Positions 44,620-44,943 are shown, numbered from the stretch's first letter. The stretch: 64,000 bases of DNA from an uncultured Chlamydiae bacterium (GCA_963697995.1 OY969110.1:1511404-1575403), one strand, 5' to 3'. Program-made: numbers and translations. The notes: generated by a model not told the origin, from the sequence alone.

Positions 44620-44943
44620 TTATAATCCAACATTTAGTTGAACAGAGGCTCCACAGCAGGGTGCTGGTGGGGGTCCATAGAAGTAAGGGTCATAGTAGTA
44701 AGGGTTGTAGTAGTAAGGATTTCCCCATCCCCAGCCCCAACCGCATCCCCAACCGCCACAACCTCCATAGTAGTGGTGATGATGACATCCGCCACCACGT
44801 CTTTGACATCCGCCACCTTTGCCGCAGTGATTTTTTCCACATCCTCTGCCTCCACCGCCACATCCTTTTCCACCTTTAGCTTCAACAGAGCTTAAAGCCA
44901 TTAAGGCAATAAAAAATGAGAAAATAAACATGAGTCGCTTCAT
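44620..44943 (-). CDS. Secreted Gly/Cys/His/Trp/Tyr-rich small protein (107 aa)
   Basis: AGGAG SD 7 nt upstream. Signal peptide MKRLMFIFSFFIALMALSSVEA. The mature part is KGGKGCGGGGRGCGKNHCGKGGGCQRRGGGCHHHHYYGGCGGWGCGWGWGWGNPYYYNPYYYDPYFYGPPPAPCC. It is the only one of four overlapping ORFs here with an SD, a signal peptide and a terminator. Confidence 0.6.
   Translation of the reverse strand: MKRLMFIFSFFIALMALSSVEAKGGKGCGGGGRGCGKNHCGKGGGCQRRGGGCHHHHYYGGCGGWGCGWGWGWGNPYYYNPYYYDPYFYGPPPAPCCGASVQLNVGL

What the first reader, a model, noticed from the sequence alone, without database searches (positions are those of the whole stretch)
44620..44943. Secreted Gly/Cys/His/Trp/Tyr-rich mini-protein of highly unusual composition
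A clear signal peptide is followed by ~85 residues made almost entirely of G, C, H, W, Y and P. They are arranged in blocks: a GC-rich basic part (GCGGGGRGCGKNHCGKGGGCQRRGGGC), HHHH, GWGCGWGWGWG, NPYYYNPYYYDPYFY and PPPAPCC. The gene has its own SD and a good terminator, so it looks expressed. The composition recalls eukaryotic glycine-rich antimicrobial or cuticle-type peptides and metal-binding (His/Cys) peptides rather than any bacterial family I know. Candidate roles are a disulfide-cross-linked envelope component, a metal chelator or a host-directed peptide.
Basis: partly seen in the sequence, partly recalled or inferred. Interest (0 to 1): 0.65.

Follow-up and report, generated by a model that had tools for sequence, protein, structure and literature searches.

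The report
Unannotated secreted Gly/Cys-rich chlamydial mini-protein
A small gene that annotation pipelines miss encodes a real, conserved, exported protein made mostly of glycine, cysteine, histidine and aromatic residues; it sits behind a textbook sigma-54 promoter in what looks like a chlamydia-like bacterium, and it probably helps build or harden the envelope of the infectious cell form.

Summary
The ORF at 44620-44943 (minus strand) encodes a 107-aa protein. A Sec signal peptide is followed by 85 residues that are 74% G/C/H/W/Y/P.

It is a real gene. A metagenome contig (L031) has the same gene order: DUF308 protein, acetate kinase, then this ORF. Its ortholog is 123 aa and 79% identical. 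All indels are in frame, all 9 Cys, 5 His and 4 Trp are kept, and dN/dS is 0.15 in this frame only. No gene caller records the ORF; JGI called the wrong frame in L031.

New here: a perfect sigma-54 promoter (TGGCACGTTTCTTGCT, 45020-45035, minus strand) lies 77 nt upstream. It is conserved in the ortholog and is the only such site in the 64 kb.

The protein shares its block order with an unnamed family of secreted Gly/His/aromatic proteins. One member, Protochlamydia amoebophila PC_RS11495, is listed in a published table behind a predicted sigma-54 promoter.

Best reading: a late-stage, exported, disordered envelope matrix protein, disulfide-cross-linked in this lineage. The function is untested, and periplasmic metal binding is the main rival. 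Interest is moderate to high.

The parts
45020..45035 (-). Sigma-54 (RpoN) type promoter, TGGCACGTTTCTTGCT (-24 GG, -12 GC, canonical spacing). The predicted transcription start is near 45009.
   Evidence: It matches TGGCACG-N4-TTGCW at 12 of 12 positions. It is the only exact TGGCAC-N5-TTGC site in the window (0.12 expected), and 0 of 100 shuffles gave a 12/12 match. It scores 14.78 with the published chlamydial sigma-54 weight matrix (cut-off 10) and is the only hit of 8 or more in 64 kb on both strands. It is conserved in ortholog L031 as AGGCACGATTCTTGCT, while the rest of the leader has diverged with indels.
44944..45019 (-). 5' leader. The segment just after the -12 element (45008-45017, CCUAUUUUUG) pairs with the SD region. 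A 38-nt inner hairpin is inserted relative to L031.
   Evidence: The fold is -21.8 to -23.8 kcal/mol, z -3.8 to -4.2. L031 forms the equivalent outer stem, with two pairs changed on both sides.
44950..44954 (-). Shine-Dalgarno AGGAG, 6 nt before the ATG
   Evidence: Read directly from the sequence. L031 has AGGAGG at the aligned position.
44878..44943 (-). Signal peptide, residues 1-22: MKR, a 14-residue hydrophobic core, then SSVEA. Predicted signal peptidase I cleavage is after Ala22. There is no lipobox.
   Evidence: Read from the sequence. This is the only segment AlphaFold2 models confidently, as a helix with pLDDT 71-81. The same layout is present in L031 (..TPLEA|KGG) and in P. amoebophila PC_RS11495 (..FVNA|KGG).
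44785..44877 (-). Basic Gly/Cys module, residues 23-53, with Cys every 5-9 residues and one His-Cys pair
   Evidence: This is the length-variable module; L031 has in-frame insertions that add CGRAH-type repeats and three more Cys.
44773..44784 (-). His4 run, residues 54-57
   Evidence: Identical in L031, inside a 16-residue identical core GCHHHHYYGGCGGWGC. A His-rich stretch sits at the same place in every distant relative.
44722..44772 (-). Gly/aromatic/Cys module YYGGCGGWGCGWGWGWG, residues 58-74
   Evidence: The DNA is a 6/12-nt tandem repeat.
44677..44721 (-). Three Pro-Tyr repeats NPYYY NPYYY DPYFY, residues 75-89
   Evidence: A 15-nt tandem repeat with 3.1 copies. This is the module shared most widely across the family.
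44620..44676 (-). C-terminal tail GPPPAPCCGASVQLNVGL plus the stop codon. The Cys-Cys pair and the VQLN(V/I)GL end are conserved.
44578..44612 (-). Intrinsic terminator (hairpin plus U6). It overlaps the last codons of the convergent acetate kinase gene, so it may serve both strands.
   Evidence: -20.5 kcal/mol, z -4.5. L031 has a hairpin of different sequence at the same place, -17.7 kcal/mol, z -4.9.

Best explanation
This is a genuine protein-coding gene that no gene caller recorded.

Shown by sequence and comparison: it has its own sigma-54 type promoter, an SD, a signal peptide and a terminator. The coding frame is under purifying selection. Every Cys, His and Trp is conserved in the one ortholog available.

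Inferred: RNA polymerase carrying sigma-54 transcribes it. In Chlamydiae that enzyme is activated by the DNA-binding-domain-less ATPase CtcC, late in the cycle when reticulate bodies convert to elementary bodies. The precursor is exported by Sec and cut after Ala22. This releases an 85-residue, basic, intrinsically disordered peptide into the periplasm or outer envelope.

There it most likely acts as a small structural matrix or cement protein. The Lys/Arg-Gly module and the Gly-Trp and Pro-Tyr modules would drive self-association and sticking to other envelope components. The nine cysteines are an odd number, so at least one cannot pair within the same molecule. They would lock the protein by intermolecular disulfides into the network of cysteine-rich outer-membrane proteins; two Cys-rich MOMP-like porins are encoded in the same window. 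The His4 run and His-Cys pairs could add metal or pH dependence.

On this reading it works like the small cysteine-rich protein OmcA of Chlamydia, or like the high-glycine-tyrosine keratin-associated proteins of hair. It is not a member of either family.
For: Real gene:
- The syntenic ortholog on L031 is 79% identical over 105 aligned residues, more than its neighbours (acetate kinase 70%, DUF308 protein 77%).
- All indels are in frame, nucleotide differences by codon position are 16/9/43, and dN/dS is 0.15.

Sigma-54 promoter:
- It is a perfect consensus, unique in the window and conserved.
- No sigma-70-like site was found upstream on this strand.
- P. amoebophila PC_RS11495 has the same architecture (Smith-Waterman z 6.4 against shuffles). 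It is listed downstream of a predicted sigma-54 promoter in Table S1 of PMC12282069.
- CtcC lacks a DNA-binding domain, and sigma-54 binding and target expression are late (PMC7482065; PMC12282069).

Export: a classical signal peptide, conserved in relatives.

Disorder: the mature part has pLDDT below 50.

Envelope context:
- The window's two MOMP-like proteins carry 13 and 23 Cys (3.7% and 5.9%).
- A comparative study describes sigma-54 regulons as controllers of the bacterial exterior (PMC3162934, listed).
Against: - There are no expression or protein data.
- Only 64 kb of the genome is visible, so rpoN and ctcC could not be checked. At least one Chlamydia-related genome is reported to lack rpoN.
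- ChIP-seq in C. trachomatis found only two direct sigma-54 targets, and neither resembles this protein.
- The L031 promoter scores 8.87, below the published cut-off of 10, because its first base is A.
- The P. amoebophila and proteobacterial-type relatives have no Cys in the shared region. Disulfide cross-linking therefore cannot be the ancestral function of the family. Their universal His-rich block points towards metal binding or pH sensing.
- Assignment of the organism to Chlamydiae is inferred from gene content only (TLC transporter, RNase HIII, RecD2, HECT, UCH, LRR-kinase).
- Only one ortholog could be retrieved.
Confidence: 0.4

Rival explanations
1. It is a periplasmic metal-binding or metal-buffering peptide for Zn, Ni or Cu. 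The His4 run, the His-Cys pairs and the many thiols chelate metal. The Gly/aromatic parts are only spacers or promote oligomerisation.
For: The His-rich block is the one feature shared by every relative, including those without Cys. L031 has a regular CGRAH-CGRAH-CGRGH-C array of alternating Cys and His. All His and Cys are conserved. From general knowledge, His/Cys/Gly-rich tails bind metal in ZraP, Hpn and HspA.
Against: No metal transporter, sensor or resistance gene lies next to it in the window or beside the distant relative P0003. There is no match to any metallothionein or metal-binding Pfam or NCBIfam model. This reading does not explain the equally conserved Trp/Tyr/Pro modules, which make up half of the mature peptide, nor a developmental sigma-54 promoter. 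Thiols in an oxidising periplasm are more likely to form disulfides.
Confidence: 0.25
2. It is a released effector or antimicrobial peptide. It is cationic and rich in Gly, Trp, Tyr and Cys, like eukaryotic glycine-rich antimicrobial peptides. It would leave the cell by type II secretion or in vesicles and act on the host or on competing microbes.
For: Its composition and net positive charge (pI 8.9) resemble Gly/aromatic-rich antimicrobial peptides (general knowledge). The surrounding genes include probable host-directed effectors: HECT, UCH, an LRR-kinase and a 1440-aa orphan.
Against: A Sec signal peptide alone delivers the protein only to the periplasm. No secretion partner lies nearby. 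The distant relatives with a C-terminal two-Cys domain come from environmental metagenomes; the genes beside P0003 include an ECF-type sigma factor and none of the host-associated genes seen in the window, which suggests a free-living bacterium. That argues for a housekeeping envelope role. There are no eukaryotic homologs.
Confidence: 0.1
3. It is the precursor of a ribosomally made, heavily modified peptide of the thiazole/oxazole type (like microcin B17), given its Gly-Cys-rich core.
For: The only support is the Gly/Cys-rich composition of residues 23-53.
Against: The N-terminus is a classical Sec signal peptide, not a leader peptide. No cyclodehydratase, dehydrogenase or export genes are nearby: the neighbours are acetate kinase, a DUF308 protein, ABC-2 transporter genes and a 1440-aa orphan. 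The relatives lack Cys altogether.
Confidence: 0.02
4. It is not a gene. The open frame is a by-product of repetitive, stop-poor DNA, or another frame is the coding one.
For: All six frames are open across the region. No pipeline called any of them here. JGI called a different frame in L031.
Against: dN/dS is 0.15 in this frame only. Differences concentrate at third codon positions and every indel is a multiple of three. The signal peptide, SD, promoter and terminator are conserved.
Confidence: 0.02

Closest known systems
Unnamed family of small secreted Gly/His/aromatic low-complexity proteins: P0003, P0004, P0007-P0009 from metagenomes, and Protochlamydia amoebophila PC_RS11495
   Same: The order of modules is the same: Sec signal peptide, a (K/R)GG-type Gly/basic stretch, a His-rich run, Gly-aromatic-Gly repeats, then (P/S)YYY repeats. 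The shared order is far beyond what composition alone gives: z 14.3, 9.7 and 6.4 against composition-preserving shuffles. The P. amoebophila member is also listed behind a predicted sigma-54 promoter.
   Different: The relatives have no cysteine in the shared region; the window protein has 9 and its ortholog 12. Four of the five metagenome members (P0003, P0004, P0007, P0009) carry an extra C-terminal domain (YWYYC..YYP.V..CP..W) that is absent here. None has a name, a Pfam family or a known function.
OmcA (small cysteine-rich outer-membrane complex protein, about 9 kDa) of Chlamydiaceae
   Same: It is small (about 9 kDa mature), exported, very Cys-rich and encoded by a late gene. It is thought to be disulfide-linked into the envelope of the infectious form (PMC6490308; PMC12282069).
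   Different: OmcA is a lipoprotein, is encoded next to omcB, and is transcribed by sigma-66 under Euo control. The window protein has no lipobox, no omcB neighbour, no match to the Pfam models and a sigma-54 promoter. OmcA is not Gly/aromatic-rich.
Sulfur globule proteins SgpA/B/C of purple sulfur bacteria (Pfam PF17228)
   Same: They are Sec-exported small structural proteins that form an extracytoplasmic envelope around sulfur globules (PMC10386293). From general knowledge, they are rich in regularly spaced Gly and aromatic residues.
   Different: The window protein and its ortholog have no HMM match. The distant relative P0004 gives only E 0.18, which is not significant. The Sgp proteins have no Cys or His modules, and their biology (sulfur storage) is different.
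High-glycine-tyrosine and high-sulfur keratin-associated proteins; Gly/His-rich hardening proteins of squid beak and worm jaws (eukaryotic; from general knowledge)
   Same: They are small, disordered Gly/Tyr/Cys- or Gly/His-rich proteins. They self-associate and are then fixed by disulfides or metal into a hard matrix. This is the closest analogue for how the window protein may work.
   Different: They are unrelated eukaryotic proteins. No homology was detected in any search. The likeness is one of composition and proposed mechanism only.
Chlamydial sigma-54 targets ctl0021 (CT652.1) and ctl0052 (CT683)
   Same: They have the same type of promoter with the critical GG/GC bases and spacing, and they are conserved across the order.
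   Different: Ctl0021 is a cytoplasmic protein of about 60 aa with no signal peptide, and Ctl0052 is a TPR protein. The window protein is homologous to neither (sequences).

Membership tests
Unnamed secreted Gly/His/aromatic low-complexity family (P0003/P0004/P0007-9, PC_RS11495) | N-terminal Sec signal peptide followed directly by a (K/R)GG-type glycine/basic stretch | tested here: met
   ..VEA|KGGKG here..LEA|KGGRG in L031..VNA|KGGHG in PC_RS11495, and ..DA|RGRG or ..AG|RGGG in P0004 and P0003.
Unnamed secreted Gly/His/aromatic low-complexity family (P0003/P0004/P0007-9, PC_RS11495) | Collinear His-rich run, then Gly-aromatic-Gly repeats, then (P/S)YYY repeats, with similarity beyond composition | tested here: met
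   phmmer E 1.5e-5 and 3.4e-4 against 1.84 billion representatives. Smith-Waterman z 14.3, 9.7 and 6.4 against 1000 shuffles each.
Unnamed secreted Gly/His/aromatic low-complexity family (P0003/P0004/P0007-9, PC_RS11495) | C-terminal YWYYC..YYP.V..CP..W domain (seen in P0003, P0004, P0007 and P0009) | tested here: not met
   The ORF stops 18 residues after the PYYY repeats, and only 22 nt separate it from the convergent ackA gene. PC_RS11495 and L031 also lack the domain, so it does not define the chlamydial branch.
Chlamydial sigma-54 regulon | Promoter with -24 GG and -12 GC at canonical spacing, in a non-coding region upstream on the right strand | tested here: met
   TGGCACGTTTCTTGCT lies 77 nt before the ATG. 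PWM score is 14.78 against a cut-off of 10, and it is the only hit in the window.
Chlamydial sigma-54 regulon | Promoter conserved upstream of orthologs | tested here: met
   L031 has AGGCACGATTCTTGCT within a block of about 35 nt in which the two sequences differ at only a few positions, while the rest of the leader diverged. Its PWM score is 8.87. A predicted site is listed before the P. amoebophila relative.
Chlamydial sigma-54 regulon | Genome encodes rpoN and ctcB/ctcC; sigma-54 binds the site and transcription is late | not testable with these tools
   Only the 64-kb window is available and it contains no rpoN or ctcC among the ORFs scanned. There are no expression data.
OmcA / Chlam_OMP3 (small cysteine-rich lipoprotein) | Match to the family model; lipoprotein signal with lipobox Cys; gene next to omcB | tested here: not met
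   No Pfam or NCBIfam match up to E 10. The cleavage region SSVEA|K has no lipobox. The neighbours are ackA and a 1440-aa orphan.
Sulfur globule proteins (PF17228) | Match to the Pfam model at or above its gathering score | tested here: not met
   No match for the window protein, L031 or PC_RS11495. P0004 gives only E 0.18, 13 bits against a cut-off of 26.7.
Thiazole/oxazole-modified microcin precursors (microcin B17 type) | Leader peptide plus adjacent cyclodehydratase and dehydrogenase genes | tested here: not met
   It has a Sec signal peptide instead of a leader, and no such enzymes among the ORFs scanned between 36.5 and 61 kb.
Bacterial metallothioneins and named His-rich metal-binding proteins | Match to a curated family model; metal binding shown | tested here: inconclusive
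   No model matches, but such short biased sequences are poorly modelled. Metal binding cannot be tested here.

The most novel reading that the evidence does not exclude
Environmental chlamydiae possess a previously unrecognised class of sigma-54-controlled, Sec-exported low-complexity 'matrix' proteins. These condense in the periplasm or envelope at the transition to the infectious stage and are then fixed by disulfides (this lineage) or by histidine-metal bridges (Protochlamydia). That would make them a bacterial counterpart of keratin-associated or beak-hardening proteins. It would give the enigmatic chlamydial sigma-54 system a concrete structural output beyond ctl0021 and ctl0052. A conserved hairpin may further ensure that only sigma-54-initiated transcripts are translated.
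Probability: 0.25. Interest if true: 0.8.

Novelty: new variant of a known kind. Interest (0 to 1): 0.6.

Why it matters
1. Annotation. A conserved gene under purifying selection is missing from the 15-billion-protein collection searched here, which draws on NCBI, Logan, JGI and ENA. JGI called the wrong frame in the relative L031, and the exact P. amoebophila sequence is not in the collection either. Genes of this type are therefore probably under-counted, and protein searches understate how common they are.

2. Chlamydial development. What sigma-54 controls in Chlamydiae is disputed: about 100 genes by RNA-seq against 2 by ChIP-seq. A perfect, conserved sigma-54 promoter in front of an exported Cys/His/aromatic-rich protein, with a parallel case in Protochlamydia, offers a simple testable candidate. 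It would link sigma-54 to remodelling of the envelope in the infectious stage.

3. Protein chemistry. The peptide joins an RGG-like basic module to Trp/Tyr-rich modules and nine thiols in 85 residues. It is a compact natural model for self-association followed by covalent locking.

Tried and rejected
- **Word-seeded HMMER search** with the protein against 5.8 billion sequences: no hit. This probably reflects HMMER's correction for biased composition.
- **Exact look-ups** of the 107-aa protein, two alternative starts and four alternative-frame ORFs: none is in the collection, nor on any contig.
- **Genome-collection scan** with acetate kinase: only relatives of 41% identity or less, from unrelated phyla, and no close genome.
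- **Metagenome scan with the protein:** 242 pattern matches, none confirmed by tblastn.
- **Second metagenome scan** with a pattern for YGGCGGWGCG: zero matches. It did not even find L031, so that contig is not in this collection.
- **Structure prediction:** uninformative beyond the signal peptide, so no fold search was run. The PDB sequence search found nothing.
- **Pfam and NCBIfam:** nothing for the protein, its ortholog or its relatives.
- **Ortholog of the known sigma-54 target Ctl0021/CT652.1:** considered and rejected after reading the sequences in Table S1. Ctl0021 is a cytoplasmic protein of about 60 aa.
- **Sigma-70-type promoter:** none found on this strand.
- **Naming the organism** from the contig length (2,051,574 bp) by literature search: failed. 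The Chlamydiae assignment therefore rests on gene content.
- **Gene context of the distant relative P0003:** no informative conserved partner.
- **Sigma-54 motif upstream of P0003:** absent.

Full report
**1. The observation**

A typical Sec signal peptide comes first: MKR, 14 hydrophobic residues, then SSVEA. It is followed by an 85-residue mature part of 8.9 kDa and pI 8.9.

The mature part is G 33%, Y 12%, C 11%, P 8%, H 6% and W 5%, so 74% is G/C/H/W/Y/P. Long ORFs of the same window have 6.4% G, 1.2% C and 2.9% Y. No other ORF of at least 40 aa in the window comes close.

AGGAG lies 6 nt before the ATG. Downstream is a 13-bp hairpin of -20.5 kcal/mol (z -4.5) followed by U6. It overlaps the end of the convergent acetate kinase gene.

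**2. Is it a gene?**

All six frames are open across this repetitive, stop-poor stretch. None of them, under any start codon, is present in a 15-billion-protein collection, although the neighbouring genes are. So the question was genuinely open.

Searching with the adjacent acetate kinase found a 70%-identical homolog on a 2.3-kb JGI metagenome contig, L031. That contig has the same gene order. The DUF308 protein is 77% identical. It is followed by acetate kinase and then a convergent ORF, L031:1833..2204 on the minus strand, of 123 aa.

This ORF is the ortholog, and the comparison is summarised below.

| Measure | Result |
|---|---|
| Identity | 79% over 105 aligned residues |
| Indels | every one a multiple of three |
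| Nucleotide differences by codon position | 16 / 9 / 43 |
| dN, dS, dN/dS in the signal-peptide frame | 0.14, 0.93, 0.15 |
| dN/dS in the other frames | 1.8-3.7 |
| dN/dS in the antisense frame that shares the wobble position | 0.32 |

All 9 Cys, 5 His and 4 Trp of the window protein are conserved. A 16-residue core, GCHHHHYYGGCGGWGC, is identical. The mini-protein is better conserved than either neighbour.

The JGI pipeline called the wrong frame on L031.

**3. The regulatory signals**

Aligning the two loci shows a conserved block just upstream of the gene, while the rest of the leader has diverged with 26-nt and 12-nt indels. The block contains TGGCACGTTTCTTGCT at 45020-45035 on the minus strand, 77 nt before the ATG.

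- This is a 12/12 match to the sigma-54 consensus TGGCACG-N4-TTGCW.
- It is the only exact TGGCAC-N5-TTGC in the window, with 0.12 expected by chance.
- No shuffle out of 100 gave a 12/12 match.
- With the weight matrix published for chlamydial sigma-54 promoters (PMC12282069, Table S1) it scores 14.78 against a cut-off of 10. It is the only site scoring 8 or more in the 64 kb on either strand.
- L031 has AGGCACGATTCTTGCT, with all critical GG/GC bases and the spacing intact. Its score is 8.87 because of the first base.
- No sigma-70-like promoter was found on this strand.

Both loci also end in a strong hairpin-plus-U terminator of different sequence. The complete unit of promoter, leader, SD, signal-peptide ORF and terminator is therefore conserved.

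**4. The organism**

The source is hidden. The neighbouring genes are on record on a 2.05-Mb contig. The window (39.9% G+C) encodes:

- a TLC ATP/ADP translocase, a HECT domain protein, and two MOMP-like porins matching Legionella_OMP (the second porin and a eukaryote-type ubiquitin hydrolase, UCH, are);
- an LRR-kinase and a RecD2 helicase;
- RNase HIII.

This set is typical of environmental Chlamydiae. That is an inference from gene content, not a proven assignment. The two MOMP-like proteins are cysteine-rich, with 13 Cys (3.7%) and 23 Cys (5.9%). One of them has a CNSCNNNSNGCNSC-type loop.

**5. Relatives**

An exhaustive phmmer search of 1.84 billion representative proteins gave only two hits: P0003 (E 1.5e-5) and P0004 (E 3.4e-4). 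A profile search added P0007, P0008 and P0009.

All five are small bacterial proteins with the same order of modules: signal peptide, Gly/Arg stretch, His-rich run, Gly-aromatic-Gly repeats, then (P/S)YYY repeats. P0003, P0004, P0007 and P0009 also carry a C-terminal two-Cys domain, YWYYC..YYP.V..CP..W. The shared order is not a composition effect: Smith-Waterman scores exceed 1000 composition-preserving shuffles by z 14.3 and 9.7.

None has a Pfam or NCBIfam family. The nearest is a non-significant E 0.18 of P0004 to sulfur globule proteins.

The most telling relative came from the literature. Table S1 of PMC12282069 lists predicted sigma-54 promoters in Chlamydia-related bacteria. For Protochlamydia amoebophila it lists one (TGGCATGATTATTGC) in front of PC_RS11495, marked 'no match' to C. 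trachomatis. That protein reads ..FVNA|KGGHGHGGGHHH...GYYGYGLGGFGLGYGLGY..SSYYYSSPSYYYSYP.. This is the same architecture, without cysteine (z 6.4). Its exact sequence is also absent from the protein collection.

So a second chlamydial lineage has a protein of this design behind a predicted sigma-54 promoter. The collection's silence on such genes is evidently a gene-calling artefact.

**6. How it most likely works**

Shown:
- It is a real gene under purifying selection.
- It has a Sec signal peptide and a conserved sigma-54-type promoter.
- The mature part is predicted to be disordered (pLDDT below 50).
- Every Cys, His and Trp is strictly conserved.
- The Gly/Cys module varies in length through in-frame repeats.

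From the literature:
- Chlamydial sigma-54 is activated by CtcC, which lacks a DNA-binding domain and so needs no upstream enhancer site (PMC7482065; PMC12282069).
- Sigma-54 binds its targets only late, around conversion to the infectious form.
- A comparative study describes sigma-54 regulons as controllers of the cell exterior (PMC3162934, listed).

Inferred:
- The gene is switched on late.
- The peptide is exported and cleaved after Ala22.
- It self-associates through its basic-Gly and aromatic modules.
- It is locked by intermolecular disulfides into the Cys-rich porin network. Nine Cys is an odd number, so at least one cannot pair within the same molecule.

I put this at about 0.4. The main rival, at 0.25, is a periplasmic His/Cys metal-binding role. 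The universal His block and the CGRAH repeats of L031 favour that reading. The lack of any metal-related context and the equally conserved aromatic half argue against it. A released antimicrobial or host-directed peptide (0.1) is not excluded. A microcin-B17-like precursor and 'not a gene' are effectively refuted.

**7. Comparison with what is known**

It works most like OmcA, a small Cys-rich late envelope protein, and like eukaryotic Gly/Tyr/Cys matrix proteins. It is a member of neither. It has no lipobox, no omcB neighbour and no model match, and it has a different promoter type.

It is not the known sigma-54 target Ctl0021, which is a cytoplasmic protein of about 60 aa.

It does belong, by architecture, to an unnamed and uncharacterised family of secreted Gly/His/aromatic proteins. 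Within that family it is a cysteine-loaded variant that lacks the C-terminal domain.

**8. Caveats**

- Only one ortholog could be retrieved. Both metagenome scans and the genome scan were unproductive for this purpose.
- rpoN and ctcC cannot be checked in a 64-kb window.
- ChIP-seq in C. trachomatis found just two direct sigma-54 targets.
- No expression or protein evidence exists.
- The similarity to distant relatives is between low-complexity sequences. Convergent design cannot be fully separated from homology.

**9. Verdict**

The gene is real, conserved and unannotated. It has a strikingly good, conserved sigma-54 promoter and a parallel in Protochlamydia. Its function is unknown; it is most plausibly a late-stage envelope matrix or cross-linking protein. 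Novelty: a new variant of a known kind. Interest: 0.6.

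Noticed in passing
window 44944-45019 (-); L031 2205-2240 (-): The 10 nt right after the -12 promoter element (CCUAUUUUUG; CCUCUUAUU in L031) pair with the SD region (AAAAAUAGG / AAUAGGAGG) in both orthologs, and two base pairs are changed on both sides. The hairpin is followed by a U-run just before the ATG. A sigma-54 start near 45009 would leave out the 5' arm. The hairpin could therefore terminate or translationally silence read-through from the upstream 1440-aa gene while sigma-54 transcripts stay translatable, which is reminiscent of IS10 fold-back inhibition. 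In the window a 38-nt insertion that is itself a hairpin sits in the loop.
   Followed up: partly
window 8844-9116 (-): A second small secreted Cys/Tyr-rich ORF of 90 aa with 6 Cys and a signal peptide ending ..PLEA|RK. It lies immediately downstream of the Cys-rich MOMP-like porin gene 9273-10337 (-). In the protein collection it is recorded only from a Logan assembly, not from NCBI, and it has no Pfam match.
   Followed up: partly
window 36504-37685 (-) and 9273-10337 (-): Two MOMP-like outer-membrane proteins (Pfam Legionella_OMP) are unusually cysteine-rich, at 5.9% and 3.7%. The first has a low-complexity loop CNNGCSTCGKSCNSCNNNSNGCNSCNNNSNGCNDCNTCNSC. The odd 40-aa 'CCCSCC' ORF at 36794-36916 (+) is just the antisense reading of that loop.
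   Followed up: partly
window 19229-21055 (+), 27269-28921 (+), 49618-51498 (+), 45048-49370 (-): A concentration of probable host-directed, eukaryote-like proteins: an LRR plus Ser/Thr kinase, a UCH-type deubiquitinase and a protein with a HECT ubiquitin-ligase domain. There is also a 1440-aa orphan with no domain match, directly upstream of the mini-gene on the same strand.
   Followed up: no
window 43476-44597 (+); L032 1196-4680: Apart from two close relatives (70% and 66% identity), the acetate kinase is only 43-50% identical to any other homolog listed. The few that carry a taxon name are Pseudomonadota, Desulfobacterales and a Thermoproteota archaeon, which suggests lateral acquisition. 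In the 50% relative (L032) it is fused in an operon with a phosphoketolase (XFP), which is absent next to it here.
   Followed up: no
window 29874-29889 (+): A weaker sigma-54-like site, AGGCACACCTATTGCT (10/12), lies about 60-120 nt upstream of a 200-aa membrane-protein ORF (29948/29995-30592), at the 3' end of a putative outer-membrane protein gene. It scores below 8 with the published matrix, and one-mismatch hits are expected by chance (2.3 per window), so it is probably not functional.
   Followed up: partly
L031 1793-2122 (-); P. amoebophila PC_RS11495; P. naegleriophila PNK_RS13020 (Table S1 of PMC12282069): Gene callers handle this gene type badly. JGI called a 109-aa wrong-frame product on L031. 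PC_RS11495 has an out-of-order locus tag, which suggests it was added late. Table S1 also lists PNK_RS13020, a secreted Gly/Tyr then Cys/Tyr/Lys-rich protein (CCRYVPQYY repeats), near a predicted sigma-54 site, although the site is on the opposite strand.
   Followed up: partly
P0003, P0004, P0007, P0009 (C-terminal 35-40 residues): A conserved C-terminal motif (Y/W)W(Y/H)(Y/F)C-x5-YYP-x-V-x2-C-x3-W-x2-V-x-P, with two Cys, recurs in these small secreted metagenomic proteins. It has no Pfam or NCBIfam model. It looks like an undescribed small domain.
   Followed up: no
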